Shown: positions 1 through 61,838 of the stretch, in pieces
How positions within the stretch are numbered: position 1 is the stretch's first letter
Layout of the letters: the number at the start of each line of letters is the position of its first letter
IMG/VR virus record: IMGVR_UViG_3300012208_000004
Coordinates: 556 to 64,555 of that record
Origin: a virus
Lineage: Duplodnaviria > Caudoviricetes
Strand: one strand, 5' to 3'
Length of the DNA: 64,000 nucleotides
Notes under the pieces: generated by a model
Told to the model about the DNA's origin: nothing
What the model saw: only the letters and a program-made list of their open reading frames with translations
Database searches by the model: none
Program-made: the position numbers and the translations under genes

Positions 1-208
1 TCTTGGGCGTGGTCACTGGCATAATTGTTGCACTGTTTGCAATTTGGTATTGGTGGATGGTTGGACATAGAATGCCATGGTAACCCCCCCCCTTGCATGG
101 GGAATACTGGAGCTTGGGTTTTGCAATCCGGCTCCTTTTTTGTGTTCAGATTTGGTGAGTATTTTCATAAATATTGCATACTGCTCGAAAGTGATGTATA
201 TTTTGTCT

Positions 209-874
209 ATGGACGCTGAATATAACACAAATGAAAAGCCATGGGATCAGCAGGATGGAGAGCCCTCACTTTGGTATGGTCGTTTTAGGTCATATTTGGA
301 GATGGGCTTTAAGCGCAATGTTAATGCTGTGTATGCAGAAGAAGCGAAAAATAGCGAAAATCAGCGAAATTTAGATGCTGGTGGTGAGTGGTATAGAATA
401 GAAAAAGTGTGGAATTGGAAAGAACGTGCAAAATTATATGATGATAATTGGATAAAAGAGCAAGATAAATTAATTGCACGAGAAAAAGAAATAGTTTTGA
501 GAACAGGTTATGCGTTAATGCATAATCGAATTAAATTATTGAATAAATTTGTAGAGAAGATGGAGCAATGGGCGGATGAGGATGATAAGATATGGTTAGT
601 GAAGACACAAGATGTTACAAGTGAAAATTTTAGTAAACATACTGAAGAGATGATATTTAATGCTCCAATGATGAGTGCGATATCTAAATATTTAGATGAT
701 ATTGCTAAAGAAAAAGGCGAACGTGTGAAGAAGCAGGAAATAGATGTAACAAATATAAATGATCAGGATATGCAGGATTTTTATAAAGCGATTGAGGAAG
801 CATTGGATCAGCATCCAGGGGCAAAGATTGCCCTTGCTGAGAAGTTGGCAGAAATAGATGGGCAATCTCGCTAG
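209..874 (+). CDS. Putative terminase small subunit
   Basis: Overlaps TerL start; PWDQQDGE...F..YL...W...W.ERA..YD pattern typical of phage TerS-like proteins; start probably ~203-209 rather than 77. Confidence 0.6.
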   Translation: MDAEYNTNEKPWDQQDGEPSLWYGRFRSYLEMGFKRNVNAVYAEEAKNSENQRNLDAGGEWYRIEKVWNWKERAKLYDDNWIKEQDKLIAREKEIVLRTGYALMHNRIKLLNKFVEKMEQWADEDDKIWLVKTQDVTSENFSKHTEEMIFNAPMMSAISKYLDDIAKEKGERVKKQEIDVTNINDQDMQDFYKAIEEALDQHPGAKIALAEKLAEIDGQSR

Positions 875-1685
875 TCTTGCATACCGTCTTGATCCGGCTC
901 AAATGGCACGTGGCGCAGGTATTGAGCTTGATCCTTGGCAATCAAAACTGGTACGAAGTCATTCGAGCCGGATCTTGATCAATTGTTCTCGGCAATCTGG
1001 CAAGTCAACAACCGTCTCGGTCATTGCTGACCATACAGCATTTTACCAGGATGACTCGCTGATACTGCTGCTTTCACCATCGCTTAGACAGAGCGGTGAA
1101 TTGTTCCGCAAATGCTTAGATGTGTACCGTGATTTGGGGAAACCTATCCCAGCTGACTCAGAAAACAAGTTGAGTCTCGAACTTGAGAATGGTTCTCGCA
1201 TTATATCGTTACCAGGGACAGAGGGCACGACACGCGGTTTCTCTGGAGTAAAGCTACTCATTATCGACGAGGCTAGCAAAGTCCCTGACGAGCTGTACAT
1301 GTCAGTACGGCCAATGCTAGCAGTGTCGGGCGGTCGGTTGATCGTTCTTAGCTCGCCATATGGAGCGCGTGGATTTTTTTATGAAGCATATAAGAGAATC
1401 CAAGAGGATAAAAAAGCAATGAGATTAATAGATAATAATGATACATTTTATGATCTTGTAAATAATAAAAATAAAAGTGAATCTAACTGGGAATATTATG
1501 AAGTACCTGCTACAGAATGCCCTAGAATTACACCTGAATTCCTAGCAGAAGAACAGGAAGACATGGGAGATTGGTGGTTTCAGCAGGAGTATATGTGTAA
1601 GTTCAATGATATGCAAACAGCAGCATTTAGAAGTGAAGATATTGAGCAAATAGTAAAACCCGGTCTTGAGGTTTGGGATATATGA
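858..1685 (+). CDS. Terminase large subunit, ATPase domain
   Basis: Walker A SRQSGKST, Walker B LLIIDEA, SSP coupling motif, QEYMCKF motif. Confidence 0.9.
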   Translation: MGNLASLAYRLDPAQMARGAGIELDPWQSKLVRSHSSRILINCSRQSGKSTTVSVIADHTAFYQDDSLILLLSPSLRQSGELFRKCLDVYRDLGKPIPADSENKLSLELENGSRIISLPGTEGTTRGFSGVKLLIIDEASKVPDELYMSVRPMLAVSGGRLIVLSSPYGARGFFYEAYKRIQEDKKAMRLIDNNDTFYDLVNNKNKSESNWEYYEVPATECPRITPEFLAEEQEDMGDWWFQQEYMCKFNDMQTAAFRSEDIEQIVKPGLEVWDI

Positions 1686-2461
1686 TAGTTACACAAGAGG
1701 CAAAAACTGAAGAATTGCTTCCAATAAATATTGGTGTAGACGTTGGCCAGATAAGGGACAATACAGCCGTGTGTGTAACCGAAGTTGCACAAGTGGATAC
1801 GGGCAAGGTTCGCTACACAGGTCCTCAAACCATTGGCTATCATGACGAATACGGCGCTTGGGTACCTCCTACTGGCCGAGAGCCCGTGATGAGATCTGAA
1901 TACACAGTGAAGCAGATTAGACGTTTACCACTCAACACGAGCTATCCAGATGTGGCAATCCACCTTGCAGACATGCTAGGTAAGGATGTATTTAAGAATA
2001 GAAAAGTACGATTATTAATTGACGTGACTGGAGTTGGCAGACCTGTATATGACGCATTAAAACTTGAAATGTTTTTACGTTTAAATAATGCAGAAATCAA
2101 ACACCAATTAAGTGGTGGAATTGAATTTAAAATGTCGGAAAGGCACGTCTTGCAACTTAAACCGATTAGTTTTGTGCATGGTGAGATATATAATCGCTCT
2201 AAAGGCACGCTCGGGAAAGCTTTTCTGGTGTCGAGATTGCAGACGTTATTTCAATGGAAACGCTTTCATGCACCTAATACAAAAGAAGTGAAAGCTATGA
2301 TTGATGAGCTGTTAGTATATGAGATTAAGGTGGATGATAAAGGAAAAGATACGTATGGAGCATCTACCGGAAAACATGACGATCTTGCAACTGCTGCTGG
2401 TCTTTCGTGTTTAGAAGATCCATACAACGAAAAAGTAACATATAGTGAAAGAGTGTACTAG
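1682..2461 (+). CDS. Terminase large subunit, RNase H-like nuclease domain (separate ORF)
   Basis: IGVDVGQ..D, IDVTGVG and HDDL acidic motifs; ATGA overlap with the ATPase ORF stop. Confidence 0.8.
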   Translation: MIVTQEAKTEELLPINIGVDVGQIRDNTAVCVTEVAQVDTGKVRYTGPQTIGYHDEYGAWVPPTGREPVMRSEYTVKQIRRLPLNTSYPDVAIHLADMLGKDVFKNRKVRLLIDVTGVGRPVYDALKLEMFLRLNNAEIKHQLSGGIEFKMSERHVLQLKPISFVHGEIYNRSKGTLGKAFLVSRLQTLFQWKRFHAPNTKEVKAMIDELLVYEIKVDDKGKDTYGASTGKHDDLATAAGLSCLEDPYNEKVTYSERVY

Positions 2462-2755
2462 ATGGCAAAGAAGAGAAAAGTATTTAAGGGGTATATGACC
2501 GTAGAAGGTTTACATGTTGAACTTCAAGGTATTAATCTTGAAACTGGAGAGTCTAGCGATTTAGTGTCTTTATCATTTCCTCCTGAGTACATGGATGATT
2601 TTGTAAAGAGATGGCAGGAATGTAGAGATGGAACAAATGAACAACACTGTTTGATGTATAGGACTTATTTTGATGATCATCCTGATATGGATTGGCAAAA
2701 GTATCTTTCTATGGAATTTAAGAGGTTAGAAGAGAAGAAAAAGGATCAAGAATAA
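2462..2755 (+). CDS. Hypothetical protein
   Basis: ORF abutting neighbours on both sides (TAG|ATG, TAA|ATG). Confidence 0.6.
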   Translation: MAKKRKVFKGYMTVEGLHVELQGINLETGESSDLVSLSFPPEYMDDFVKRWQECRDGTNEQHCLMYRTYFDDHPDMDWQKYLSMEFKRLEEKKKDQE

Positions 2756-4954: not shown

Positions 4955-5293
4955 ATGAGCACCGACATTGATATAACACTAGAGTGGCAAAGCCCACTTC
5001 CTGTAGATGACTTACAAACAGTACAGGCATATGTGTTGTTGAAAAGTCTTGGGATATCTAACACTTCGATAATGAGGAAACTCGGCTATGATCCAGATGA
5101 GGAAGCAGCATTGTCAGCGGCGGAAGATGCGCAAGCCCTTGCTAACAATCCACTCATGCAACAACAGGACGTGTTGCCAGATTCCATTCCAGGAGTAGCG
5201 CCACTACCAGGTCAACCACCAGCAGTCGCACCTGGTGCGCAACCATCCCCATTGCAAGGTGGAAGTCCACAAGGAGTACAGCAGAATGGATAA
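4955..5293 (+). CDS. Portal protein, C-terminal part
   Basis: DITLEWQSPLPVD...GISNTSIMRKLGYDPDEE resembles the C-terminal region of SPP1-like portals; Pro/Gln-rich tail; GGGAG SD. Confidence 0.75.
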   Translation: MSTDIDITLEWQSPLPVDDLQTVQAYVLLKSLGISNTSIMRKLGYDPDEEAALSAAEDAQALANNPLMQQQDVLPDSIPGVAPLPGQPPAVAPGAQPSPLQGGSPQGVQQNG

Positions 5294-7882: not shown

Positions 7883-8212
7883 ATGACAAAAGATGAATTG
7901 ATTGAGAAGTTGGCAGAAAAAGAGCATGCATCATGGGCACGGTGGATGGCCTATCTCTTCTCGAAGTGTGAGGATAATCCAGATGGCTCACTTACTATCC
8001 CGTCTGCTTACGTAACATCGCTACAATCACAGATAGATGCATCATATGCAGATCTATCAGAGCAGGAAAAGCAGTATGACAAGGATGAGGTAGCTCATAT
8101 CTTGCCCATCATTGAAAAGTACACAGATGAAAAGCTGCAAAATGCAGTTGTGAAAACAATAAGCCGCGGAGGATTAGTCAATCCTATTGGCAACCCCTTG
8201 CACGGTGATTAG
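7883..8212 (+). CDS. RyR-domain-like hypothetical protein
   Basis: LAEKEHASW...YADLSEQEKQYD pattern; AAGGAG SD. Confidence 0.55.
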   Translation: MTKDELIEKLAEKEHASWARWMAYLFSKCEDNPDGSLTIPSAYVTSLQSQIDASYADLSEQEKQYDKDEVAHILPIIEKYTDEKLQNAVVKTISRGGLVNPIGNPLHGD

Positions 8213-12103: not shown

Positions 12104-12122
12104 CCCCCTTGCAAGGTGAGAT

Positions 12123-15082: not shown

Positions 15083-17593
15083 TTGCTTCTAGCCCAAATG
15101 GTTGTCGAATACATTGCAGATACGAGCAAGCTCGTTAGTAGCGTGGCAAATGTCAAGAACGCTGCTAATGAGGGGGCGGAATCTTTGCGCAATATGGCAA
15201 CGGCGGGCGCGGCTGTAGCAACGGCGGCTCTCATTGGGGTAGGTGTAGCCTCAACCAAGATGGCAGCCGACTTTCAACAAGGCATGACCAGACTTGTAAC
15301 GGGCGCGGGTGATGTTACTGACAATATGGCAATGATGAGTAAGAGCGTTTTAGCAACATCTGTTGCAACTGGTGTTTTGGCTACTGGTACAGATGGCTTG
15401 GTTGCTGCTATGTATCCTATCATTTCATCGGGTCAACGCGGAGCTGAAGCCCTTGACACTCTCTCAGTGGCCGCAAAAGGTGCTCAGATTGAACAAGCAG
15501 GTGTGGTAGAAGTAGCAAATACGCTATCTGGCGTTATGACGAACTATGGGACAAAAAATTTTACTGCTACACAATACATGAATGGGCTAATTGCTGCTGT
15601 AAAACAAGGTAAAATCACTCTTCAAGACCTTGCGATCGCGATGGGTCCTGTTGATCCAATTGCTCAACAATTAGGTATTTCTTTCAATGATATGGCAGCT
15701 GCCATGACAACGCAAACCAACGCTATGATACCTGCTGATCGAGCAGCTACGGGTTTGCGCTTTATGATGATGGCACTTGAAAATCCTACAAGTAAAGCTA
15801 AAGATGCCATGAAGTCAATGGGACTGAGCAGTATTGATGTTGCCAATGAGATGAAAATCAGCCTGCCAGGCGCATTGAATATGATTTATGATGCTGCAAA
15901 AAACGCAGGTCCAGAGGGCAGTGTACCGTTTAGTCGGGCGGTTGCTGATATGGTAGGGGGAATACGGTCCCTGTCAACATTTTCAGCATTGACAGGAGAA
16001 CACATGAAAGATTTTACTAAAAACTCAGCAGGTGTTCTTACTGCCATGCAGCAAAATAAAAATGCCGTGGTTGGTTGGGATGTAGTACAGGGTAATTTTA
16101 ATATCAAAATGGATCAAGCAAAAGCTACTCTTGCATCTCTTGCTATTTCAATTGGAACCGCTCTTTTGCCCGTCCTTGGCAAGGCTGTTGATGCATTCAA
16201 TTCACCTGCTTTCCAGCAATTTGCAACAACAGTAGCCGGTGTTTTGACATCTGCCTTGCTTGGCTTAATCAATGGGATATCAACCGTTGTGGGATGGGTC
16301 ACTCAGCTTGTGACCTACTTCCAACATAACCAAGCGGCGGCTATGGCTCTTGCGGTGGGCGCGGCAATCCTAGCAGGTGCTATCGGAGGTGCTTTAGTTG
16401 TAGCGTTTGCTATGGCCACGGCGGCGGCGGCAACTACTGCCATAGCATTTCTGTCAGTTGCATGGCCTGTGATTGCAATTGTAGCGGCTATAGCAGGGTT
16501 GGTGGTAGGTATTATTCTGCTCTATCAGCATTTTCAACCTGTACGAACAGTAGTAGATGCGGTAGGAAAAGTATTTCAACAGGTATGGAGTGTTCTTGTT
16601 GCAAATTTTATGCCAGCTTGGGCAAAGTTAGTAGCAGCATTTCAAGAGGCGATGCCTGCTATTCAATTAATTGGTGAAATATTGCTAGGAGTGCTTGTTG
16701 TGGCAATCGGCATTGTTATAGCGGTAGTCGTGGCGTTAGCAATGGGAATAGCAGGTGCTATAGGTGGAATTGTTCAAATATTTACTGGTTTTGTGCAGAT
16801 TGTAACAGGGGTATTTAATGTTATCGGCGGATTGGTAATGTTTTTTGTGGATTTGTTCACAGGGCATTTTGACAAGCTTGGAAGTGATTTAGGCAGAATA
16901 TGGCAAGGCATTATTCAAATATTTCAAGGTGCGTGGAATGTGATAGCAGGTGTATTTAATGCAGCAGTTGGTCTTGTAGGTGGTATAGTTGTTGGGTTTA
17001 TACAAGGTATTATTGGATTTTTCACAGGATTGTGGGATGCACTTGTAGGTCATTCTATCATTCCTGATATGGTAAATGGGATTGTGACATGGTTTGAGCA
17101 GCTTCCAGGTAGAGCTGGCGCGGCTATTCAGTCAATGATCACAAATGTTCTAAATCTCTTAAACGGGCTTGTGACAAGCGCTATGAATGCAGGTTCAAAT
17201 ATCGTCAAGGGTATAGCCACAGGTATAACAAATGCAATAGGAGCAGTAGGCAACGCGATAAGTACAGTTACCAGCTTTATTTCTGCCCACCTCCCTCATT
17301 CACCTGCTAAGATGGGTCCTCTGATGGATTTAGAAAACCAAGGCATGGAGATATCCAACCAGATATCTAAGGGCATGATAAACGGCGTACCACTCATCTC
17401 ATCTGCCATGAATAACCTAGCCAAGCCTGTAACGGTAGGATTGAAGGGAGTCGCAAGTGCTAGTGGCGTATCCCCCTTGCAAGGTGGTACTCAGGACAAT
17501 AGCATACATGTCTACATTGATGGCAAAGAAGTTACTGGGACAGTTATGAAGCGTGTACAGCGTGAATTGAGAGGGCATGGTCTAAAGAAATGA
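15083..17593 (+). CDS. Tape measure protein
   Basis: 836 aa, Ala/Gly-rich helical, TP901-type core, Trp/Phe-periodic repeats, hydrophobic segments. Confidence 0.92.
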   Translation: MLLAQMVVEYIADTSKLVSSVANVKNAANEGAESLRNMATAGAAVATAALIGVGVASTKMAADFQQGMTRLVTGAGDVTDNMAMMSKSVLATSVATGVLATGTDGLVAAMYPIISSGQRGAEALDTLSVAAKGAQIEQAGVVEVANTLSGVMTNYGTKNFTATQYMNGLIAAVKQGKITLQDLAIAMGPVDPIAQQLGISFNDMAAAMTTQTNAMIPADRAATGLRFMMMALENPTSKAKDAMKSMGLSSIDVANEMKISLPGALNMIYDAAKNAGPEGSVPFSRAVADMVGGIRSLSTFSALTGEHMKDFTKNSAGVLTAMQQNKNAVVGWDVVQGNFNIKMDQAKATLASLAISIGTALLPVLGKAVDAFNSPAFQQFATTVAGVLTSALLGLINGISTVVGWVTQLVTYFQHNQAAAMALAVGAAILAGAIGGALVVAFAMATAAAATTAIAFLSVAWPVIAIVAAIAGLVVGIILLYQHFQPVRTVVDAVGKVFQQVWSVLVANFMPAWAKLVAAFQEAMPAIQLIGEILLGVLVVAIGIVIAVVVALAMGIAGAIGGIVQIFTGFVQIVTGVFNVIGGLVMFFVDLFTGHFDKLGSDLGRIWQGIIQIFQGAWNVIAGVFNAAVGLVGGIVVGFIQGIIGFFTGLWDALVGHSIIPDMVNGIVTWFEQLPGRAGAAIQSMITNVLNLLNGLVTSAMNAGSNIVKGIATGITNAIGAVGNAISTVTSFISAHLPHSPAKMGPLMDLENQGMEISNQISKGMINGVPLISSAMNNLAKPVTVGLKGVASASGVSPLQGGTQDNSIHVYIDGKEVTGTVMKRVQRELRGHGLKK

Positions 17594-22872: not shown

Positions 22873-22905
22873 TTCCCCCTTGCAAGGGGAGAAAGAAGAC
22901 ATTCA

Positions 22906-31327: not shown

Positions 31328-31400
31328 TCCATTCTTGTGTAACTAATTGAACATTTGTACCCCACCCCTTGCAAGGGGGATATCCTTTCTGGTATATTGA

Positions 31401-33681: not shown

Positions 33682-33701
33682 AAGTATCCCCTTGCGAGGG
33701 G

Positions 33702-34360: not shown

Positions 34361-34825
34361 TGTGATTCCTTTCCTGTTGTCACTACTTTATATAGTGGTG
34401 TATACTAGCCATAAATGCCCACCGGAGCAAGCTATGGCACTACAAATTAAAAGCGCTCTACCATTCGATAAACAAACCGTATCCACCGCCTTGTCTAAGA
34501 TGGACACTGAAGTTGTTCCAATTGTCACATTGCCATCTGTGCCGGAAGCTCCACAGCCTACCCCCTTGCAAGGGATGAGGCTACCGCGATTGAATGTACA
34601 CTCTTCATGGATGCCACTTCTGATATCCATGTCTGCACTTTGTATCATTATCGTCGGATCCATGGCGTTTTATACCTTTATGATCATTTCCATACTGCTT
34701 GGGAGTCTGCTAGGGCATGTTGGGCAGATCCTACGGTAGCCTGTCCTGCATCCATACTCCAATAGCAGCCAACAAAACGACAACAATACACAGTCCAACT
34801 ATCACAATGTACACGTTACTGGCAT

Positions 34826-35326: not shown

Positions 35327-35766
35327 GGTTGGGACTCCTCTCCTAAAAGTTGGGCGGTTTGCTCTTGAAGACCCTGAAATTCATTTTCACCAACAGTTGT
35401 TAACCACTCCCTCACCAGATTTTGAAGTGCTTCAATGCGCTTATTTTGTGCTTCAATGATATCTAAAACGCGTTTAGCAGAAGCTTTGGCAATCGCGTTA
35501 ATTCTCTCCTCCTCCCCTTGCAAGGGGGACTCTGTAGCAGGTTCGAGCGTGCCCGTCTCTGCAAAAGCTTGCAAGTAGGGCAGAAGAGATTTCATGTCTT
35601 CTTGCAAGAGTTTAAAGTAGTCGCTATCAGTATCAAGGTATAAAAGTTTTATACCCTTTCCTAGTACTGAATGATCTTCTACCCATAAACGTAAATCACT
35701 TCTTGTCTGATCAGAAAATTTAAGAAGTGGTGTTTCACCAGGTGCTTCATGTTTTTCAATCTCCAT
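35323..35766 (-). CDS. Hypothetical protein
   Basis: TAATG coupling. Confidence 0.6.
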   Translation of the reverse strand: MEIEKHEAPGETPLLKFSDQTRSDLRLWVEDHSVLGKGIKLLYLDTDSDYFKLLQEDMKSLLPYLQAFAETGTLEPATESPLQGEEERINAIAKASAKRVLDIIEAQNKRIEALQNLVREWLTTVGENEFQGLQEQTAQLLGEESQP

Positions 35767-38331: not shown

Positions 38332-38577
38332 GGCTAGGTCTTTTAAATTAGTGGGTGCGAGGGAGAAGGAACACTATGCGCTTTCAAAAATCCCCCGCAC
38401 AACCTTCACTGGTGGATAGTATAGATCATTGTGGAAAGCTTGTCAAGAGTATTGGACATGTTTGAAAATATTGGTAAATTATTGACTATTCATAATAAGT
38501 ATGGTACAGTATTGGAAGTGGTGACCATGTATGCCCTATCCCCCTTGCAAGGTGGTATGGGCGAAAGGAGAGAGAAC

Positions 38578-41451: not shown

Positions 41452-42744
41452 TTATCTAAATCGTCCACATCCACATGGACATTTTGAATTGAGAAAAGCC
41501 ATAGGCGTAAAACTGTTGTGAAGCTGCTCTTTTATCGTGAGAGCATTCAGATCAACATCCGGCCCGTGCCATTGTGTTCTAGAGAGGTCAATTTCAACGC
41601 CGCGCCCATACTTTTGCACTGGCTCGTTACCCCTTGCAAGGGGGATAGGAGGTTCAGGCGTGGGCACGTCAATTTTCCTCATAGACATCAGTCCAGCTTC
41701 AATCCATTCCCTCAGTGTATGCGGTCCCCTATCTGGGAAGAACTTTTGCATAAGGATATCATTGGGATCTTTTGCGATAAGCGGGCTCCAACGTTGGCAT
41801 TTTTCCTCGAGATGTTCGAGCCAATATTCCGCGCCGGAGTCGCCCGAGTCGTCCTCATCGAACGATTGCAGGATGCAAGAGGCTAGGTTCAACTCTGATA
41901 CCCAACGCGCTAACCGCCCGCGAGTCGTGCTTCCTGTGGCCACACAGGCTATCAGGTCTCCTGCCTCTTGCTCCACAGACAAACAGCAGATCTCACCTTC
42001 AACAATCATGACAGGAAATTCATACTGGACTGTGTTGACGTTGTAAAGTCCTTCACCGGAGCCAAGTACTTGCCCATAGGATTGTTCTTTACCAGGACGT
42101 TTGATGGCCAATCTCCAAAGTTCACTACCGTAAAACCAGGGGATGAGAATGCCATCGGGAATACGCACTTTATCCTTACTCGAATTTCCAGGGTCAAGTC
42201 CCCAATCTTTCAATTCAGATTCGAAGTAGCTTCCATTGGATAGCTTCGGAACATATCCCAGCTTCTTTTTCTTGATAATTTCATCACCTAAACCACGCCC
42301 GTGCAAGTAGTCAAGCATATCCTTTCCTGCAGGACTCCAGAGAACGCTAGCAGCACGTTCGACTAAATCCTTTCCAATGTCCTGCCACGCCTTGCAAGGG
42401 GGTTGTTCCTTGCCACTGGGAATGTTTTGAGATGGTTTAGAAGGAACATAGTCACCGTTAACCTCAAGTCCTAAGACATCGCAAGCTTCACTATGACTCA
42501 TGTTGCAATAGTCACGTAAAAAATCCTTACAATCGCCATGCCATCCACATCCAGACGCGCGGGTAGCACAGGTAAACTGCCCTGTTTCTGGTCTTGTTAT
42601 GAAGCGGTCATGCCCTCCACATCGTGGGCAGTTGCTATGGTACTCAAGCACGCCGTGTACAGTCGCAGGACGTCCAACAACGTCAATGAGAGCGTAATGC
42701 TCTATGAGAGATTTTATATCGTAAAGCGGGCTTAGTGTCGGCAT
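41452..42744 (-). CDS. DNA primase (Zn finger + TOPRIM)
   Basis: CPRCGGHDRF..C..GD, YLHGRGL, VEGE, FDEDDSG, KDPND. Confidence 0.88.
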   Translation of the reverse strand: MPTLSPLYDIKSLIEHYALIDVVGRPATVHGVLEYHSNCPRCGGHDRFITRPETGQFTCATRASGCGWHGDCKDFLRDYCNMSHSEACDVLGLEVNGDYVPSKPSQNIPSGKEQPPCKAWQDIGKDLVERAASVLWSPAGKDMLDYLHGRGLGDEIIKKKKLGYVPKLSNGSYFESELKDWGLDPGNSSKDKVRIPDGILIPWFYGSELWRLAIKRPGKEQSYGQVLGSGEGLYNVNTVQYEFPVMIVEGEICCLSVEQEAGDLIACVATGSTTRGRLARWVSELNLASCILQSFDEDDSGDSGAEYWLEHLEEKCQRWSPLIAKDPNDILMQKFFPDRGPHTLREWIEAGLMSMRKIDVPTPEPPIPLARGNEPVQKYGRGVEIDLSRTQWHGPDVDLNALTIKEQLHNSFTPMAFLNSKCPCGCGRFR

Positions 42745-45672: not shown

Positions 45673-45995
45673 TTCTTTCTCCTAGTGTCGTATCTGCCCC
45701 TTGCAAGGGGCATAACAGGAACAGGATGTACAGGTCTCATATCCTCCTGCTGATATTTATTTGTTGTAGTTTTCTTCTCATCAATGCGATAACTAAATCT
45801 ACCAGGATGAAATTTTTCACTATTTTTCACATACTCCTCACACTCTTTACGTGTATCAAACTCCACTATCGAAGCATCACTCGTAACAAAATCATACATG
45901 GATATGTTCCCAATAATAACTCTCATAGTTGTCATATCCTTTCTATGCACACACTTAACGAGATCTCGCAACGTGGGTTTTCTGCATCTGCCCAT
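45669..45995 (-). CDS. Hypothetical protein (start probably internal, MTTMRV)
   Basis: Fills the operon gap, coupled to next gene. Confidence 0.45.
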   Translation of the reverse strand: MGRCRKPTLRDLVKCVHRKDMTTMRVIIGNISMYDFVTSDASIVEFDTRKECEEYVKNSEKFHPGRFSYRIDEKKTTTNKYQQEDMRPVHPVPVMPLARGRYDTRRKK

Positions 45996-46444
45996 TTTCG
46001 TGTTCGCTTATCGACTATGGTATTGTCATTGATGGGGACACCGCCTAACTTCAAGAACTTCCCAAGGGAGTCTGTTATGTGCTTCTCGCATCCATCTAAG
46101 TCTCGTAACCACAATGTGCGGAAATAAAACTTGATGTCTGCCACAAGAGGAACCTTATCCTTGCCCGTGCTAATCTCACTAATGATCTTGATCCAATCCC
46201 AATCCGCTATTACTATCCCCTGATTTAAGTCCAAGTATTGAGCAACATTTTCTTTAAATTCTCTTGCTTCATCAGAATCCATAAGCGTGTGTGCCCATTT
46301 CCCCTTCTTGGTTTTCATCTTGCGAATAGTGTATGAATGGTTGATTCCAGGGGGAAGAAAGGGCACAACAATCTTGCAGAATGGATCTAGGGGCCATGCT
46401 ACCCCTTGCAAGGGGGATGGTTTGGGTTTAGCTCGTGTGGGCAT
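45932..46444 (-). CDS. RusA-like Holliday junction resolvase
   Basis: PPGINHSY, RDLDG..K...D.L....IND, NPRCEI. Confidence 0.8.
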   Translation of the reverse strand: MPTRAKPKPSPLQGVAWPLDPFCKIVVPFLPPGINHSYTIRKMKTKKGKWAHTLMDSDEAREFKENVAQYLDLNQGIVIADWDWIKIISEISTGKDKVPLVADIKFYFRTLWLRDLDGCEKHITDSLGKFLKLGGVPINDNTIVDKRTRKWADAENPRCEISLSVCIERI

Positions 46445-51628: not shown

Positions 51629-51732
51629 ATCTTAACACGCTAGTGTAACAATGTCAATATGTTTACGTACCAATTTCTACGCTAGCGTAAATATTCGTTT
51701 ATGTTGACACCACTATAGCTATATGGTATTAT
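51629..51732. promoter_or_regulatory. Divergent promoter pair with palindromic operators (probable lysis/lysogeny switch)
   Basis: Minus TTGACA-17-TAAGAT; plus TTGACA(51704)-17-TATTAT; operators ACGCTAGTGT (51637-46) and TACGCTAGCGTA (51678-89). Confidence 0.7.
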
Positions 51733-52103: not shown

Positions 52104-52301
52104 GCGGCGGGCAGTGAACAGCCTGAGAAACTAAACCCACTGCCCGCAAACAACCCTACTCAAATTCTAACTCGAATAGACAGAATGATCAATCATTTTG
52201 AGATTGACGTCCCATTAACGTGCCAATACTCACCTTGCAAGGGGGGATGGGCAGTTTTTTTACCTTGTTCCGGTGAATAATATAGGGCATTTATGAAAGT
52301 A

Positions 52302-54810: not shown

Positions 54811-55463
54811 AAAAAGAGAAGCCTAGACGCAAAAGAAAAGAGTCATTTCTATGGCTATGAAACGGAAGAAAACCATTGTCTATCAGGTAAAAGTGATAGG
54901 CAAACCAGGTCACGGACTCAGGACACCCATCTACGATGACGCACTCCGCGCCCAAAGAATACTTGAGAAGCTATACCCAAAGGTCAAAATTATCAAAAAT
55001 TGGGTATAGTGCCCACACACAAAAGAGCAGCTCCGGTTATCCTTGTCCGGTTGCTGCTCTTTTGTTTTTCGGAGATTGTCAATACTAATGGCTTCAAGTA
55101 CTCTCTAGAGATATGAGAAGTATAACACAAAAGAAAACCACCACTCCTCGGCTCGATAAAAAAGAGTGATGGCTTCCCTAGTTGATCTAAAACTATCACC
55201 AGTATATCACACTTTCATACTTGCTCCACAATGACCATATTTGCTCACCAGAACGTCAACACGTAGCTTTGCCCACAGACAATGAGTATTTGGATATCTC
55301 CCTTTTCAATCCTCACAAAAGCGATTGTAGCGACACGACTTCCCCATGCAAGGGGTGACATCCCACTATAGAATGGTGACTTGTATACAGTAATTTGCAA
55401 AGTGGTCAATACTGTGTTATATTGTGACTATCAGTGTTGCAAATATTAGAAAGGATAGAGACA

Positions 55464-55649: not shown

Positions 55650-55656
55650 ATCCATC

Positions 55657-57917: not shown

Positions 57918-59627
57918 ATGGCAATAATGATAGAGCAGGAAACAACAGTAGATTATGACTCGCTAGCAAAAACCTGTATCCTTGGACTGAGAAATGGAAA
58001 AATACCAGAATGGCCGGAAAGTGGATTTGGAGATTTCTGGGAACCAATCATCGCTGAAATTGAACGCTACTCACGCAAATGCAAAAGCAATACAGGGCTC
58101 GTCACTGGCAAAATTGAGAGCATGTATGATACCTATCCTGAGCTCAAAAAATTGCTTGCGCCTAGAATCCCCGTGCAAGGGGGAATGCCACAACAGGAGG
58201 AACTTCCAACGTGTCCGCCGTTACCTGATCATCTCCAGTATCCACCAGAACTAGCTGCTAGTGCGTGCAAATGGCTAGATGACTACATTGCATTTTCCAA
58301 GAAATGGAGCCCAAGGGCACATGATAGCTATCATGAGTGTGTCGCCATGGCATTACTCTCAACGGTAGCTGGACGCCGTGTGTCACTCTCTTACGGCGAT
58401 ATGGAGTACACTCCACTTTTCATAGCGCTTGTTGGCCCCACCACACTATTCGTGAAAAGTACCACACTCAAACTTTACAATGGATTACTTCATGCCGCCG
58501 GACTTGATTGGTTATTGGGCGCGAACATCATCACTCCGCAAAAGCTCCTCTCCAATATGTCAGGTCGGACACTGCCATCGAACTGGGAAGAATTAGACGA
58601 GGATCAACAAACACGCATTAAAAAGCGACTAGCCATGGCCGCGCAAGTGGGATGGTGCTATGACGAATTTGGTATGCAGCTCGATTCCATGGTCAAGGAA
58701 AATGGCATTATGGCCGAATTTAAAGGTTTGCTTCGACTCCTGCACGACTGTAAACCAGTATTTGAATATGACACGCATAGACGCGGGCTCGAACGCATTG
58801 AAAAACCATACCTATCTCTCGTTGCCAGTTTAACACTAGCTGATATTCGGCCATACGCGGAAAAGGGTAATAAGTTTTACCGAGATGGACTATTCGCTCG
58901 TTTCCTCTTTTCTTGTCCTCCCAAAGGGACCAAATCCAAACGGGACCAGTTCCCAAAGGAAAAGCTTACCTACCCAACTGATCTCATTAGTCCCCTTGCA
59001 AGGTGGCATTATTGGCTAGGAGAACCTGAAGTCACCATTGATGATGATTATGGGAAGGACAACAAAACAGTTATCAAGCGAACTATTCGCGTTCTCAAAG
59101 AACTGCCAGAACAAGAATGCATCCTACCCGATGAAATTAGAGACCATATCATTGCCTATGAAAACGCTTTGAAAGATATGATGGAAGCTGAAAATAATCC
59201 CGTGCCGGAAGATCTCTTTGGAAGCTATGGACGCTTCCATATGCAGGCTATCCACATTTGCATGCTACTAGCAAGCTTCGATAACCAGGGACACATCGAA
59301 TTAAGACACTGGGCACGCGCTAGGCAATTCATCGAAAGTCGGCGGGAAGAATTACACGGCATGTACATACAAACCAATACAGCCGATGATGACAAAGAAT
59401 CCTATGAAGATAAAGAAGGAAAGCTGGAGGATTTCATCCTCCAAAAAATGACAGAACTTGCCGACAAAGGGAATGAATGGGTAACTGCTTCTGTTCTCTA
59501 CGCTTACATGAAAAAATCCTCAAGAGAGAAAATAGAGGACAAACTAAAACGATTAACCAAACAAGGAATACTTGAAATAGAACAAACAAAACGAGCTGCA
59601 AAGTTTAAACTCTCATTTGAAGAGTAA
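57918..59627 (+). CDS. DUF3987/YfjI-like replication ATPase with C-terminal winged helix
   Basis: LFIALVG....KST, YDEF, DGLFARFLF; wHTH-like C-terminus. Confidence 0.75.
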   Translation: MAIMIEQETTVDYDSLAKTCILGLRNGKIPEWPESGFGDFWEPIIAEIERYSRKCKSNTGLVTGKIESMYDTYPELKKLLAPRIPVQGGMPQQEELPTCPPLPDHLQYPPELAASACKWLDDYIAFSKKWSPRAHDSYHECVAMALLSTVAGRRVSLSYGDMEYTPLFIALVGPTTLFVKSTTLKLYNGLLHAAGLDWLLGANIITPQKLLSNMSGRTLPSNWEELDEDQQTRIKKRLAMAAQVGWCYDEFGMQLDSMVKENGIMAEFKGLLRLLHDCKPVFEYDTHRRGLERIEKPYLSLVASLTLADIRPYAEKGNKFYRDGLFARFLFSCPPKGTKSKRDQFPKEKLTYPTDLISPLARWHYWLGEPEVTIDDDYGKDNKTVIKRTIRVLKELPEQECILPDEIRDHIIAYENALKDMMEAENNPVPEDLFGSYGRFHMQAIHICMLLASFDNQGHIELRHWARARQFIESRREELHGMYIQTNTADDDKESYEDKEGKLEDFILQKMTELADKGNEWVTASVLYAYMKKSSREKIEDKLKRLTKQGILEIEQTKRAAKFKLSFEE

Positions 59628-59631
59628 AAGT

Positions 59632-60010
59632 AAACTTAGAAAACTTAGAAGAAGTATAGAAACATTCATAGCCTCTGAAGCGGCTTCAGAGGCTATTTTA
59701 TGAGTAACTTAGAAACTTAGAACTTAGAAAAAACCTTAGAGTTACAAAATTTCACCCTGCAAGGGGGGTATGAGATGGCTTGTGTCCTTGTTCTAAGACT
59801 TTCTAAGTTCTTTCTAAGATAGAGTGATCGTGTTGTCCTTACAAATATAGCTATATAACAACTTAGAAATATTTGAGCTTAGTTTTAAAAAAATAAATAT
59901 TTTCTAAGTTCTAAGTTTCTAAGTTACTATAGGGATACCCTACCCCCCTGCATGGGGTATGCATGCATTAGATACATTGACGATTTCTAAATTTTCTAAG
60001 TTATTCTAGG
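59632..60010. repeat. Iteron array (AACTTAGA/TCTAAGTT), putative replication origin
   Basis: About a dozen copies in both orientations; perfect 29-bp inverted repeat 59703-59731 / 59900-59928; AT-rich; directly after Rep-like gene. Confidence 0.75.
59668..59696 (+). terminator. Intrinsic terminator
   Basis: ATAGCCTCTGAAGC/GCTTCAGAGGCTAT palindrome plus T-run. Confidence 0.65.
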
Positions 60011-60149: not shown

Positions 60150-60227
60150 TTCGGGCAACCTAATATGTGTGTCTGGCAAACAAATATCCAAGATTTAGGG
60201 CTTGTAAACACTGCTTTTGAGCTCAAG

Positions 60228-60272: not shown

Positions 60273-60350
60273 CGAAAATATTTGTACAGCTTCACAAGCT
60301 GATCTACCCCCTTGCAAGGTGACGCTCAAACAAATGAAAGGTGACCATGG

Positions 60351-61451
60351 ATGGCAAAGAATGTCAGGAAGATAAAAAAGCGTGAGGAGTCAGATGGTTT
60401 CTTAGTCCAGGAGGTCATTCAAGAATATTTAGTATCTCCTCACGTCAAAAATCTTAGTTCTCGTACTCAGGATGAATATCAACAGGAGTTAGGCGTCTTT
60501 TCTGATTGGTGTAAATGCCGTCAGATTGTCAATGAGAAGGGCAAGAGAACGGCTGTATTTGGTGAAGGTCTTATGCTTCACCAGATTGATCAATATAGCA
60601 TTCAGCTCTTCTGTGAGCATCTTCAGGCTACCCACAAGCCGACAAAGAAAAGCCGATCTGAGATATCCAGTTACACGCTGGCTGGGTATGTCCGTGTGAT
60701 TAAATCTTTCCTCAACTGGTGTCTGCTTGATCCTCAATATGGAAATTACACAAGCTCGGCTGTTATCCAGCGAATTGAAAATCCGAAAGTGATAGAGACT
60801 ATCATCGAAACCTTCTCTCCTGAGCAGATCCAGGCTTTATTTAAAGCGTGCGAGAAAGAAGAAAGCGAACATCTCCAGCTACGCGATAAAGCTATCCTTG
60901 CTATCCTGCTCGATTGTGGATTACGCGCGACTGAATGTATCACGCTAACCATAGGAAATGTGTCATTAGATACAAAAGATGCATACGTTCGTGTTTTAGG
61001 CAAAGGCAATAAGTGGGGAGAAGTTGGACTTGGGGAGCAAGCACGTAAATATGTGCAGAAGTATATTCGCGTGTTTCGCATTCCAACAATAGAATACGCG
61101 GTACAACAAAAGCATAAAAACCTATCAGATCGTCAATGCAAACAAATAAGCTTAGAGGTTGTACAGTCGTCTCTGGTGTTTGTGAATAGGTATGGAGAGC
61201 AGTTAACAAAATCAGGACTTTGGAGAATTATCACGCGTTTGTCAGATTGGGCAAGGATTGAAGGTGTACGGTGCTCACCTCACACATTTCGTCATACGTA
61301 CGCGAAAATGTTTATGCAGAATGGAGGTGATATTTACACGCTTTCAAAGCTCCTTAGACACAATTCAATTAAAACAACCGAAGACTATCTTAAATCTCTC
61401 CAGCAAAGTGAAGCAAGGAAAGGGGCCAAGTCAGTACTGGATAATTTGTAG
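60351..61451 (+). CDS. Tyrosine integrase
   Basis: GLRATE, GKGNK, HTFRH, LRH...TTEDY; next to tRNA-derived att core. Confidence 0.92.
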   Translation: MAKNVRKIKKREESDGFLVQEVIQEYLVSPHVKNLSSRTQDEYQQELGVFSDWCKCRQIVNEKGKRTAVFGEGLMLHQIDQYSIQLFCEHLQATHKPTKKSRSEISSYTLAGYVRVIKSFLNWCLLDPQYGNYTSSAVIQRIENPKVIETIIETFSPEQIQALFKACEKEESEHLQLRDKAILAILLDCGLRATECITLTIGNVSLDTKDAYVRVLGKGNKWGEVGLGEQARKYVQKYIRVFRIPTIEYAVQQKHKNLSDRQCKQISLEVVQSSLVFVNRYGEQLTKSGLWRIITRLSDWARIEGVRCSPHTFRHTYAKMFMQNGGDIYTLSKLLRHNSIKTTEDYLKSLQQSEARKGAKSVLDNL

Positions 61452-61516
61452 CACTATTGTGTATTTACCATAAAAGTGGTATACTTTCAAAAGTATTCAT
61501 AAGGATGGTGTTACGC

Positions 61517-61699
61517 ATGCCTGATGCATCTAATGTTTCGTGTTTCATGACAGTGAAGGAAGTATCTCAGCATTTACGGTTGACTGAGAGGACGATTTAC
61601 ACCATGCTTGAAAATGGTGTCATTCCAGGTGTTCAGATTGGGCGCGTGTGGCGTATTGATCGTGAGCAGTTGGATCAAAAGTTGAGAGGGCAAAAGTAG
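61517..61699 (+). CDS. Excisionase-like HTH_17 protein
   Basis: MTVKEVSQHLRL..RTIY....G.IPG.QIGRVWRI. Confidence 0.85.
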   Translation: MPDASNVSCFMTVKEVSQHLRLTERTIYTMLENGVIPGVQIGRVWRIDREQLDQKLRGQK

Positions 61700-61838
61700 T
61701 TTTGTTTGAGCGTCCCCCTACTAGGTCTCAAACACCTTGCAAGGGGACTGACCACGTACATGAGTGAGCATGCACGGGCTAAAGCTAATTGTAGCCTAGT
61801 TCCTGCATGTTTTCAAGTGAAAGGAATTAGGTTTTTTC

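What the first reader, a model, noticed from the sequence alone, without database searches (positions are those of the whole stretch)
89..61746. Genome-wide palindrome CCCCTTGCAAGGGG (~28 copies) written into genes in all three frames
Seen, start positions. Perfect: 22876, 31365, 35514, 41630, 45697, 46402. One mismatch: 89, 12105, 17473, 25210, 25438, 25774, 28853, 30171, 33688, 34562, 38541, 42388, 52231, 55342, 58169, 58992, 60308, 61733. Two mismatches: 5248, 8194, 59753, 59944. A given 14-mer is expected about 0.0002 times in 64 kb at equal base frequencies, and less for a GC-rich motif in this AT-rich DNA. In genes it is read as PLQG/TLQG, PLAR and PCK, so the constraint is on DNA, not protein. 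The commonest variant is symmetric (CACC.../...GGTG), as expected for a dimeric binder. No gap exceeds ~6 kb. About a dozen copies are intergenic, including upstream of both recombinases and twice in the putative origin. Inference: a genome-coating binding-site system. Possible analogies are mycobacteriophage stoperators, parS/matS/Noc-type organiser sites, HIP1-like methylase-linked repeats, or a self mark borrowed from the host. I do not recognise this motif.
Basis: partly seen in the sequence, partly recalled or inferred. Interest (0 to 1): 0.88.

Follow-up and report, generated by a model that had tools for sequence, protein, structure and literature searches.

The report
Phage-only dispersed 14-base palindrome array
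A soil phage of Ktedonobacteria and its relatives scatter one 14-letter DNA palindrome about every 2 kb through genes and gaps, a word their hosts lack, so some still unidentified protein probably reads it, as in a similar unexplained repeat of certain mycobacteriophages.

Summary
The window has 6 perfect copies of CCCCTTGCAAGGGG, 24 with at most 1 mismatch and 28 with at most 2, all at the listed coordinates. Shuffles give 0.01 to 0.11. Shuffles of synonymous codons that keep every protein give 0.15 copies with at most 1 mismatch in genes, against 15 seen.

The window is nearly all of a complete 64.5-kb temperate long-tailed phage. Integrase relatives place its hosts in the class Ktedonobacteria. 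Related phages and prophages carry the same core at similar density, some at the same codon in proteins only 26-44% identical.

Host chromosomes lack it. In complete host genomes the 12-base core occurs almost only inside prophages of this family. This rules out a HIP1-like or host-borrowed repeat, and also Chi-like or uptake-type signals.

The two halves vary independently with no compensatory changes, so it is read as duplex DNA and not as a hairpin. It avoids the strong promoters. The lysis-lysogeny switch has other operators, and no ParB/KorB domain is present.

Best reading: docking sites for an unidentified symmetric DNA-binding protein. Closest known: the unexplained 17-bp palindromes of Cluster O mycobacteriophages. 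This scan had already found arrays of this kind on other phage DNA.

The parts
89..102 (.). motif copy, 1 mismatch (CCCCTTGCATGGGG), 12 nt into the terminase small subunit-like gene 77-874, read PLAW
5248..5261 (.). motif copy, 2 mismatches, in the overlap of ORFs 4955-5293 and 5235-5582. A relative (G003) has a copy at the same place.
8194..8207 (.). motif copy, 2 mismatches, 5 nt before the end of ORF 7865-8212. G005 has a copy at the same place.
12105..12118 (.). motif copy, 1 mismatch, fills the 19-nt gap between head-tail genes 11729-12103 and 12123-12473
17473..17486 (.). motif copy, 1 mismatch, in the tape measure gene 15083-17593, read SPLQGG
22876..22889 (.). perfect copy, in the gap between tail genes 17590-22872 and 22906-23781. 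Homology with 6 relatives ends here.
25210..25223 (.). motif copy, 1 mismatch (CACC form), first of three in ORF 24098-26245, read TLQG
25438..25451 (.). motif copy, 1 mismatch (CACC form), second of three in ORF 24098-26245
25774..25787 (.). motif copy, 1 mismatch (CACC form), third of three in ORF 24098-26245
28853..28866 (.). motif copy, 1 mismatch, in the endolysin gene 27840-28982. At the same place G005 spells the same Leu-Gln with other codons.
30171..30184 (.). motif copy, 1 mismatch, in the holin-like gene 29839-30237. G005 has a copy at the same place.
31365..31378 (.). perfect copy, intergenic, 76 nt upstream of the Xer-like recombinase gene 31454-32350. Its TTGCAA with TATATT 18 nt on gives a 9-of-12 promoter-like match.
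33688..33701 (.). motif copy, 1 mismatch, between convergent genes, next to a terminator-like hairpin at 33654-33681
34562..34575 (.). motif copy, 1 mismatch, in ORF 34284-34739. G005 has a copy at the same place.
35514..35527 (.). perfect copy in ORF 35323-35766 (minus strand). G005 has a copy at the same place.
38541..38554 (.). motif copy, 1 mismatch, in the HTH_17 gene 38431-38796, about 95 nt from a strong divergent promoter pair
41630..41643 (.). perfect copy in the Toprim primase gene 41452-42777 (minus strand), read PLARG. It is kept at the same place in G001, G004 and G005 (37-72% protein identity), at the edge of the conserved domain.
42388..42401 (.). motif copy, 1 mismatch, in the primase gene, read PPCK. 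G001 has a copy at the same place.
45697..45710 (.). perfect copy, intergenic, 25 nt upstream of the start of the helicase-methyltransferase gene 43441-45672 (minus strand)
46402..46415 (.). perfect copy, 29 nt into the RusA-like gene 45932-46444 (minus strand)
52231..52244 (.). motif copy, 1 mismatch, intergenic, 128 nt after the HTH_26 gene and about 58 nt before the -35 hexamer of the 12-of-12 promoter at 52302-52330
55342..55355 (.). motif copy, 1 mismatch, intergenic, upstream of the DEAD_2 helicase gene 55561-57693
58169..58182 (.). motif copy, 1 mismatch, in the DUF3987/DnaD_N replication gene 57750-59627. It is kept at the same place in G003 and G004 (28-33% protein identity).
58992..59005 (.). 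motif copy, 1 mismatch, in the DUF3987 gene. The relatives have no copy at this place.
59753..59766 (.). motif copy, 2 mismatches, in the iteron (AACTTAGAA) origin-like region, 21 nt after the left 29-nt inverted arm
59944..59957 (.). motif copy, 2 mismatches, in the origin-like region, 15 nt after the right 29-nt inverted arm
60308..60321 (.). motif copy, 1 mismatch, between the tRNA-like attachment core (about 60228-60272) and the integrase start at 60351. This placement recurs in 12 of 14 elements.
61733..61746 (.). motif copy, 1 mismatch, intergenic, 34 nt after the excisionase-like HTH_17 gene 61457-61699
60351..61451 (+). tyrosine integrase. It is the protein that led to the hosts, and it is the gene that a motif copy most consistently accompanies.
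51632..51692 (.). switch-region operator-like repeats (ACGCTAGYGTAA, twice, part of TTAACAC-N4-GTGTAAC). These are a different word from the dispersed motif.

Best explanation
The copies are docking sites on double-stranded DNA for a symmetric (dimeric) sequence-specific protein. The array belongs to one family of temperate long-tailed phages of Ktedonobacteria and not to their hosts. Selection keeps about one site per 2-2.5 kb. It does this by placing sites in gaps where it can, and otherwise by bending codon choice and a few residues in tolerant stretches of proteins.

I infer that the phage family encodes it. It is neither the HTH_26 switch regulator nor a ParB/KorB-type protein.

The most likely effect is genome-wide rather than promoter by promoter: marking or holding the phage or prophage DNA. 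One fixed site sits between the attachment core and the integrase gene.

Shown here: the array, selection at the DNA level, conservation across the family, absence from hosts, and reading as duplex DNA. Inferred: that a protein binds it, who encodes that protein, and what binding does.
For: 1. Enrichment and DNA-level selection.

2. The two halves vary independently. Over 152 sites in 8 genomes or fragments, pair 2/13 has 98 consensus, 0 compensatory, 8 G-T and 46 broken cases. Pairs 3 to 7 are nearly invariant. As single-stranded DNA the hairpin is weak: -4.3, -2.2 and -0.3 kcal/mol for a perfect copy and the two common variants.

3. The same core is present at similar density in relatives whose shared proteins are 24-94% identical. 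Five records hold 5-17 copies with at most 1 mismatch, and controls hold 0. The brp13 prophage holds 21 sites in about 50 kb. G162 holds 17 and G163 holds 12 core copies. Of the 117 viral stretches fetched, 25 hold 2 or more core copies.

4. Some sites sit at the same place in orthologues of 26-44% identity (primase, DUF3987 protein), while others are gained or lost.

5. Hosts lack it. The perfect word is found in 10 of 151 genomes of the class, at most 3 per genome, and those 3 lie on one 8.3-kb phage-like contig. For the 12-base core:
- K. racemifer: 4 of 4 copies lie in one element beside the integrase.
- brp13: 17 of 19 lie in one prophage, and 2 lie in a remnant of a related immunity module.
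- G168: 8 of 9 lie beside an integrase gene.
- G172: 13 of 13 lie in two clusters, each beside an integrase homologue.
Outside these clusters the 10-base core is at the level of the control word.

6. The two lineages differ in which outer position is free. In G000, G005, G002 and G003 position 1 is fixed and position 2 varies. In G001, G004, brp13 and G013c it is the reverse. This fits a reader that evolves with the phages.

7. A copy lies within 140 nt upstream of the integrase start in 12 of 14 elements, although the tRNA-like attachment cores differ.

8. Spacing tends to be more even than random. The coefficient of variation of the gaps is 0.51-0.93 against about 0.95 in simulations, with P between 0.02 and 0.5 per genome.
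Against: - No reader was found. No recognisable DNA-binding protein is both shared by all array-bearing genomes and missing from the two motif-free relatives.
- The only unknown protein with nearly that pattern is the 166-residue product of 34826-35326. It is missing from G004, which has the most sites, and it folded poorly, with mean pLDDT 58.
- Conservation of one word across phages with different switch regulators is unusual for phage regulators.
- The evenness of spacing is weak, and the genomes are related and so not independent.
- My gene calls are crude.
- Nothing here shows binding.
Confidence: 0.5

Rival explanations
1. Stoperator-like silencing. The sites are bound by the phage's own immunity repressor, which blocks transcription through the prophage at many points.
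For: - All array-bearing elements are temperate or are prophages.
- The largest motif-free stretch of the window (46402-52231) contains the HTH_26 gene and its neighbours.
- A remnant in brp13 that keeps an HTH_26 homologue and its neighbour also keeps 3 sites in 3.6 kb.
- There is precedent in Cluster A mycobacteriophages (PMC6550527 passages; PMC9283540 abstract in the listing).
Against: - The site is a palindrome, so it cannot be oriented with transcription, which is a defining feature of stoperators.
- The HTH_26 recognition helix differs strongly between lineages.
- Each HTH_26 variant has its own palindrome beside its gene: TTAACAC-N4-GTGTAAC in the window, TTAACACGAATGTGTTAA in G004 and another in G005.
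- No motif copy lies in the 135-bp switch region.
- One operator shared by the whole family would make all members homoimmune.
- In G001 the repressor gene does not lie in a motif-free gap.
Confidence: 0.12
2. Recombination joints. The shared word serves as a short patch of identity, or as the target of a recombination enzyme, at which members of the family exchange genes and domains.
For: - Ends of protein-level homology with 10 relatives lie within 60 nt of a site 51 times against 26.4 in the null (P = 0.007, 426 boundaries).
- The integrase gene, the best conserved gene across the family, has a copy within 140 nt of one or both ends in 13 of 14 elements.
- In G005 a 376-bp gene is bracketed by two copies, and its order relative to its neighbour is swapped compared with the window.
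- The family encodes a Cas4-like exonuclease, a probable partner protein and RusA.
- Cresawn et al. report insertions and deletions between Cluster O repeats (PMC4351075, section 8).
Against: - At 15 nt the excess is not significant (12 against 7.7, P = 0.18).
- The boundaries are shared among related genomes, so they are not independent.
- Sites may simply sit in low-constraint linkers and gene ends, which is also where homology stops.
- The window shows no motif remnant at the swapped gene's borders.
- Fourteen bases is short for homologous exchange (from general knowledge), and selection for evolvability is weak.
- The motif-free relatives G159 and G160 have the same recombination genes.
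Confidence: 0.14
3. Host reader. A protein conserved in Ktedonobacteria binds the word, and the phages collect sites to recruit or titrate it.
For: - The core is constant across phages whose own regulators differ.
- Every element with a known host lies in this class.
- No universal phage-encoded candidate was found.
Against: - Host chromosomes carry the 12-base core at chance level or not at all outside prophages. A host reader would therefore have no good site of its own.
- The difference between lineages in the outer positions fits a reader that evolves with the phage.
- G160 lacks the array. Its recombinase has homologues in 118 of 169 genomes of the class (at most 53% identical), which weakly suggests the same host class.
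Confidence: 0.12
4. Methylation-linked word (HIP1-like). The sites are targets of a phage DNA methyltransferase.
For: - The window encodes a helicase fused to an N6/N4 methyltransferase (43441-45672) and a fragment of a C5 methyltransferase (42749-43444).
- One perfect copy lies 25 nt upstream of the fused gene.
Against: - The fused methyltransferase gene has homologues only in G005, G162, G163 and in the motif-free G159. It has none in G001, G004 or brp13, which have full arrays.
- Hosts lack the word, unlike HIP1 hosts.
- Fourteen specified bases is long for a methyltransferase target (general knowledge).
Confidence: 0.04
5. Structure in RNA or single-stranded DNA. The palindrome acts as a hairpin, for example as a terminator, a processing site or a priming signal.
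For: - A perfect palindrome can fold.
- Three copies score as weak terminator-like hairpins in the scan (31365, 33688, 59753).
- The spacing is close to the length of an Okazaki fragment (general knowledge).
Against: - There are 0 compensatory changes at pair 2/13 against 46 broken pairs.
- Folding energies are -4.3 to -0.3 kcal/mol, no better than shuffles.
- The relatives G159 and G160 share the primase, helicase and DUF3987 protein and have no array.
Confidence: 0.03

Closest known systems
17-bp dispersed palindromes of Cluster O mycobacteriophages (TGTTCGG-N3-CCGAACA; Cresawn et al. 2015, PMC4351075; section 8 and discussion passages read)
   Same: - Tens of copies of a phage-specific palindrome (34 in Corndog) spread over the genome.
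- Part lie in short gaps and about a third lie in genes.
- Mostly not at promoters, and absent from the host genome.
- Sites are mostly at the same places in relatives, with single-base losses.
- The authors suggest a dimeric binding protein and leave the function open.
   Different: - A different word, with no spacer.
- A host of another phylum (Chloroflexota, not Actinomycetota).
- Cluster O phages have no integrase and give no lysogens, whereas this family is temperate and keeps one site between the attachment core and the integrase gene.
- Here the core survives down to 26-40% protein identity, whereas the five Cluster O phages are close relatives.
- No homology of any reader can be tested, because none is known in either case.
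Stoperators of Cluster A mycobacteriophages (L5, Bxb1; PMC6550527 passages read; PMC9283540 abstract in the listing)
   Same: - 20 to 30 sites over a temperate phage genome, most not in promoters.
- Syntenic sites between relatives.
- The motif varies slightly between lineages.
   Different: - Stoperators are 13-bp asymmetric sites oriented with transcription.
- They are read by a monomeric immunity repressor and differ between heteroimmune subclusters.
- Here the site is a perfect palindrome shared by phages with different switch regulators and operators.
KorB and its OB operators on IncP plasmid RK2 (PMC11790492, passages read)
   Same: - A palindromic operator repeated over a mobile element of about 60 kb.
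- It acts at a distance from promoters, so sites need not overlap promoters.
   Different: - KorB is a ParB-family CTP-dependent clamp. No ParB_N or KorB domain is found in six frames of this phage.
- The number of OB sites on RK2 is recalled, not read.
HIP1 of cyanobacteria and their phages
   Same: A short palindrome written into genes in several frames at high density.
   Different: HIP1 is abundant in the host chromosome. Here the hosts lack the word, and the window holds 1 copy of GCGATCGC.
Other dispersed palindrome arrays found earlier in this scan on other phage DNA (notes e1-6024120, e1-6024115, e1-5865459, e1-4079863, e1-6052420, e1-6007703, e1-5886345)
   Same: - Evenly spread, DNA-level selected palindromes of 12 to 18 bases in tailed phages.
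- Several also contain TTGCAA or GCAA...TTGC.
   Different: - Different words and different phage groups.
- Some of those notes propose a ParB/KorB-like reader, which is absent here.
- Those notes are unchecked by me.

Membership tests
Cluster O-type dispersed phage palindromes (descriptive class, reader unknown) | Tens of near-identical copies of one palindrome spread over the whole phage genome | tested here: met
   28 copies in 64 kb, largest gap 5.8 kb
Cluster O-type dispersed phage palindromes (descriptive class, reader unknown) | Absent from the host genome | tested here: met
   10 of 151 genomes of the class hold any perfect copy. The 12-base core lies almost only inside prophages.
Cluster O-type dispersed phage palindromes (descriptive class, reader unknown) | Mixed placement in gaps and in genes, mostly not at promoters, with syntenic sites in relatives | tested here: met
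   11 of 28 copies are intergenic. None overlaps a promoter-like site scoring 10 or more of 12. Some sites are syntenic. The last 4 kb of the window was not scanned for promoters.
Stoperators (Cluster A mycobacteriophages) | [quoted passage not shown] | tested here: not met
   The site is a perfect palindrome. The one-sided variants CACC and GGTG both occur in plus-strand genes.
Stoperators (Cluster A mycobacteriophages) | Read by the immunity repressor, with a consensus that differs between heteroimmune groups | tested here: inconclusive
The switch regulators and their nearby palindromes differ between members while the dispersed core does not, which argues against this feature.
ParB/KorB with parS or OB sites | A ParB-family protein encoded by the element | tested here: not met
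   PF02195 and PF08535 give no match at E <= 0.1 in six frames, while controls give matches. None was found among the 70 window proteins scanned against Pfam.
HIP1-like host iterated palindromes | High density in the host chromosome | tested here: not met
HIP1-like host iterated palindromes | Linked methyltransferase that acts on the word | tested here: inconclusive
   Methyltransferase genes are present in the window but not in G001, G004 or brp13. Methylation itself cannot be tested here.
Chi-like or uptake-type host signals | The word or its half is over-represented in the host genome | tested here: not met
   The half-site GCAAGGGG occurs 650 times in 13.7 Mb against 499 for the control word, and 32 times in the 64.5-kb phage.
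REP or MITE-like mobile repeats | A longer conserved unit around the palindrome, mainly intergenic | tested here: not met
   Flanks carry 0.4 bits or less per position beyond the 14 bases. 17 of 28 copies lie in genes.

The most novel reading that the evidence does not exclude
The array is a family-wide identity tag read by a protein of no known DNA-binding family, distinct from the immunity repressor. Through it, a whole clade of heteroimmune temperate phages shares one system. That system might silence or organise the genome, or it might direct recombination that exchanges modules at the tagged points, including the integrase cassette. It could be the same unexplained system as the Cluster O repeats and the other arrays found by this scan, which would make it a widespread and undescribed layer of phage genome biology.
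Probability: 0.25. Interest if true: 0.85.

Novelty: new member of a known kind. Interest (0 to 1): 0.6.

Why it matters
Dispersed phage-specific palindromes have been in print since 2015 without a reader or a function. This case adds three things.

1. It has a cultured, fully sequenced lysogen. Ktedonobacteria strain brp13 carries a prophage of about 50 kb with 21 sites and a chromosome that otherwise lacks the word. Pull-down, ChIP and recoding experiments are therefore feasible.
2. It shows conservation deep enough to rule out immunity operators.
3. It has one fixed site between the attachment core and the integrase gene, which gives a first place to look for an effect.

It also offers a practical marker. 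In Ktedonobacteria genomes the 12-base core alone pinpoints prophages of this family.

Tried and rejected
- **Host repeat, HIP1-like or borrowed self mark:** rejected by the host counts.
- **Chi-like half-site:** rejected.
- **Hairpin:** rejected on lack of covariation and on folding energy.
- **Promoter element:** only 31365 and 55342 show a plausible -10 hexamer at the right distance. The promoter-like sites scoring 10 to 12 of 12 do not overlap any copy. The last 4 kb was not scanned.
- **Shine-Dalgarno or translation role:** only 12105 sits at the right distance from a start codon.
- **HTH_26 as reader:** set aside on the variable recognition helix and on its own operators.
- **Replication proteins as readers:** the helicase, primase, DUF3987 protein, Cas4-like exonuclease, the 279-residue protein and RusA are also present in the motif-free G159 and G160.
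- **The 279-residue protein 37492-38331:** no Pfam or PHROG match. The Atlas gave only unnamed viral clusters and a weak gp32 lead.
- **The 166-residue protein 34826-35326:** the phyletic pattern is suggestive, but it is absent from G004. AlphaFold2 gave mean pLDDT 58, so no fold search was run.
- **Small HTH_17 protein at 50888-51061:** present in all members, including the motif-free relatives.
- **Integrase scan of viral contigs:** gave only 7 loci and no wider sample.
- **Cultured relatives:** capsid and helicase searches in GenBank phages gave nothing above 29% identity.
- **Literature:** the 10-base core occurs in 30 papers. None of the 20 listed concerns a repeat, judging by title and abstract start. 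The terms 'Ktedonobacteria' plus 'phage' gave 34 papers, and none of the 15 listed describes such a motif. I found no paper on this word with these two searches.
- **Sequencing runs:** no RNA holder listed, and two soil DNA runs kept as contigs hold the stretch. Read laying was not used, because contigs cannot show molecule ends.
- **ARAGORN:** found no complete tRNA in the window. The tRNA-like attachment cores were recognised by eye only.
- **Supplements:** supplementary files of PMC6550527 (stoperator counts and orientation, Fig. S1) were not seen.

Full report
**Observation.** Dinucleotide-preserving shuffles give means of 0.01 and 0.11. The window is bases 556-64555 of a 64,555-base viral record that CheckV rates as complete, and the missing 555 bases hold no copy. 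The family is sharply bounded, with 6, 18, 4, 5 and 11 sites at exactly 0, 1, 2, 3 and 4 mismatches. Information content is high over the 14 bases and at most 0.4 bits per position in the flanks. It is by far the most over-represented palindrome in the genome. The only other excess is TTGCAA, with 77 copies against 19.6 expected, of which 26 lie in the CTTGCAAG core.

**What the DNA is.** PHROG and Pfam scans show a temperate long-tailed phage:
- Structure and lysis: terminase, portal, major head protein, tape measure, endolysin and holin.
- Replication and recombination: a Cas4-like exonuclease, helicase, Toprim primase, RusA and a DUF3987/DnaD_N protein next to an iteron-rich origin-like region.
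- Lysogeny: an HTH_26 regulator in a divergent-promoter switch, a tyrosine integrase with an excisionase-like neighbour, and a second Xer-like recombinase.
- Others: a CsrA homologue and a helicase fused to a methyltransferase.

No cultured phage is close; capsid and helicase identities are at most 29%.

**Selection acts on DNA.** With my own rough gene calls, 17 copies lie in genes and 11 lie in the roughly 8% of the window that is non-coding. Of the 17, 13 are read (P/T/A)(L/V)QG, 3 are read PLA(R/W) and 1 is read PCK. Over seven genomes of the family, 35 of 120 core copies are intergenic. The 85 in genes use the three frames 48, 30 and 7 times, and the frame that would give cysteine is the rare one. 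Shuffling synonymous codons while keeping every protein gives 0.146 copies with at most one mismatch in genes, against 15 seen. Where a relative lacks a site, it sometimes spells the same Leu-Gln with other codons. The word is therefore written into tolerant protein stretches by codon choice and a few substitutions.

**A family trait.** Several contigs appeared repeatedly, and 25 of the 117 stretches hold two or more core copies. Five records hold 5-17 copies with at most one mismatch, and the control word gives 0. They are relatives of the window; shared proteins are 24-94% identical, and G+C ranges from 43% to 51%. Some sites sit at the same place in orthologues that are only 26-44% identical. 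In the primase gene this holds in four genomes, and in the DUF3987 gene in three. Other sites are specific to one lineage. Two lineages differ in which outer position is free:
- G000, G005, G002 and G003: C(C/A)CCTTGCAAGG(G/T)G
- G001, G004, brp13 and G013c: (C/A/T)CCCTTGCAAGGG(G/T/A)

**Host, and absence from the host.** An alignment of five integrases found relatives in a Ktedonobacteraceae genome (84% identity), in Ktedonobacter racemifer DSM 44963 (57%) and in Ktedonobacteria bacterium brp13 (54%).
- Perfect copies per genome are 0, 1 and 1 in 5.5, 13.7 and 8.9 Mb.
- Of 151 genomes sampled from the class, 10 hold any perfect copy. The maximum is 3, all on one 8.3-kb contig that carries 9 core copies.
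- The 12-base core occurs 4 times in K. racemifer, all in one element beside the integrase.
- It occurs 19 times in brp13. Seventeen lie in one prophage of about 50 kb, and 2 lie in a remnant that keeps an HTH_26 homologue and its neighbour.
- In G168, 8 of 9 copies lie beside an integrase homologue. In G172, 13 of 13 lie in two clusters, each beside one.
- Outside these clusters the 10-base core matches the control word.
- The half-site is not enriched in hosts.

The host-repeat, HIP1-like, Chi-like and uptake-type readings therefore fail.

**How it is read.** Over 152 sites, the variable pair 2/13 shows 0 compensatory changes, 8 G-T pairs and 46 broken pairs. Pair 1/14 shows 8, 13 and 45. 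In the window the pair is C-G 12 times, C-T 7 times, A-G 7 times, G-G twice and never A-T. As single-stranded DNA a perfect copy folds at -4.3 kcal/mol and the common variants at -2.2 and -0.3, no better than shuffles. This fits two half-sites on duplex DNA read by a symmetric protein, and it does not fit a hairpin.

**What it is not tied to.**
- Strong sigma-70-like promoters exist, for example 12 of 12 matches at 52302-52330 and 11 of 12 at 51704, 47834, 40553, 38446, 33314 and 57859. None overlaps a copy (the last 4 kb was not scanned).
- The 135-bp switch region has no copy. It has its own repeats, ACGCTAGYGTAA, found there and almost nowhere else.
- The 78%-identical HTH_26 of G004 sits beside a similar TTAACAC...GTGTTAA palindrome, and G005 has yet another. 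The recognition helix differs strongly in G001 and brp13. These regulators therefore look like ordinary lineage-specific switch proteins, not readers of a word that the whole family shares.
- No ParB_N or KorB domain is found in six frames.
- The methyltransferase genes are missing from G001, G004 and brp13.

**Relatives without the array.** A primase alignment found 12 viral loci. Eight carry the core, with 1 to 10 copies per 8-21 kb. Four, from records G159, G160 and two near copies, carry none. G159 (64 kb) has 0 core copies and G160 (43.5 kb, complete) has 1. Neither has another comparable palindrome, although CTTGCAAG occurs 7 times in G159 against 0.9 expected. Both share the helicase, primase, DUF3987 protein, Cas4-like exonuclease, the 279-residue protein and RusA, which argues against these proteins as readers.

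An iterative profile search over ten relatives gave four families present in at least 4 of 5 array-bearing genomes and in neither motif-free one: two structural proteins, the endolysin and an unknown 166-residue protein (34826-35326). That protein is absent from G004 and folded with low confidence.

**The integrase junction.** A copy lies within 140 nt upstream of the integrase start in 12 of 14 elements and just after the stop in 3 of 14. G006 has neither. By eye, the upstream copies lie between a tRNA-like attachment core and the gene, although the cores derive from at least four different tRNA-like sequences. This is the most constant site of the array and the best place to look for an effect.

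**Spacing and mosaic joints.** Gaps tend to be more even than random. The coefficient of variation is 0.51-0.93 against about 0.95, with P from 0.02 to 0.5 per genome, and the genomes are related. Ends of protein-level homology lie near sites about twice as often as matched random positions at 60 nt (51 against 26.4, P = 0.007), but not significantly at 15 nt. This could reflect exchange at the sites. It could equally mean that sites are tolerated in linkers and gene ends.

**Comparison with what is known.** The nearest precedent is the 17-bp palindrome of Cluster O mycobacteriophages:
- 34 copies in Corndog, absent from the host.
- Partly in genes, mostly not at promoters, and syntenic in relatives.
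- Some insertions and deletions lie between copies.
- The function is unknown, and a dimeric binder has been suggested (PMC4351075, section 8 and discussion).

Stoperators differ in being asymmetric, oriented and tied to the immunity repressor (PMC6550527). KorB acts from distal palindromic operators but is a ParB-family clamp (PMC11790492). Earlier notes of this scan describe similar arrays in other phages; I did not check them. I tested only their ParB/KorB lead on this phage, with a negative result.

**Verdict.** The array is real and strongly selected. It is specific to a family of temperate Ktedonobacteria phages and is read as duplex DNA. The mechanism is not established. I put 0.5 on a dimeric protein docking array with an unidentified, probably phage-encoded reader. 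The rest is spread over recombination joints, a host reader, an immunity-repressor array, methylation and hairpin structure. It is a new member of a known but unexplained kind.

Noticed in passing
window 51632-51692: Two copies of ACGCTAGYGTAA lie in the 135-bp divergent-promoter region beside the HTH_26 gene. They form part of a TTAACAC-N4-GTGTAAC inverted repeat. The 78%-identical regulator of relative G004 has TTAACACGAATGTGTTAA at the matching place. These are likely the true switch operators.
   Followed up: partly
window 59630-60005: Origin-like region directly after the DUF3987/DnaD_N gene. It has at least 12 AACTTAGAA iterons in both orientations, including a perfect 29-nt inverted pair (59703-59731 and 59900-59928).
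   Followed up: partly
window 60110-60272 and loci: tRNA-like attachment cores precede the integrase gene. By eye, relatives with 53-79% identical integrases carry cores from at least four different tRNA-like sequences. ARAGORN finds no complete tRNA in the window.
   Followed up: partly
window 7540-8212 versus G005 11794-12487: Two small adjacent genes are in the opposite order in the relative G005, where the second one is bracketed by two motif copies. The window shows no motif remnant at the matching borders.
   Followed up: partly
window 34187-34360 (minus strand): A 57-residue CsrA homologue (Pfam CsrA, E = 2.9e-20), also present in G001 and G005 but not in G004 or brp13.
   Followed up: partly
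window 43441-45672 and 42749-43444 (minus strand): A helicase (DEAD/SNF2-type) fused to an N6/N4 DNA methyltransferase, followed by a 231-residue ORF that matches only the first third of C5 cytosine methyltransferases.
   Followed up: no
window 30578-31327: A papain-family cysteine peptidase (Peptidase_C1, E = 1.3e-17) at the end of the lysis block, 51-73% identical in G001, G005 and G163.
   Followed up: no
window 50888-51061 (minus strand): A 57-residue HTH_17-like ORF that my gene caller missed. Its helix TTVRRWIK is nearly invariant in G005, G163, G162, G002 and the motif-free G160.
   Followed up: partly
G009:C1:2538900-2543000 (loci L152, L154): In strain brp13, far from the prophage, a remnant keeps an HTH_26 homologue, a 77-residue ORF and a 235-residue neighbour (77-79% identical to the prophage's copy), with three motif-core copies in 3.6 kb. 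It may be a retained immunity module.
   Followed up: partly
L136 (contig of a genome labelled Patescibacteria group): A 17.8-kb contig carries a 79%-identical integrase and four motif copies. A second contig of the same genome holds three perfect copies. These look like phage contigs of this family binned into an unrelated genome.
   Followed up: no
G159 (loci L167-L170): This motif-free relative still has CTTGCAAG as its most enriched 8-base palindrome (7 copies against 0.9 expected) with unrelated flanks. In the window, TTGCAA outside the motif is also about 2.6 times over expectation.
   Followed up: no
G160 recombinase L171:3053-4195: Its tyrosine recombinase family is found in 118 of 169 Ktedonobacteria genomes, with up to 11 or more matches per genome. 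This suggests a multiplied mobile-element recombinase in this class.
   Followed up: no
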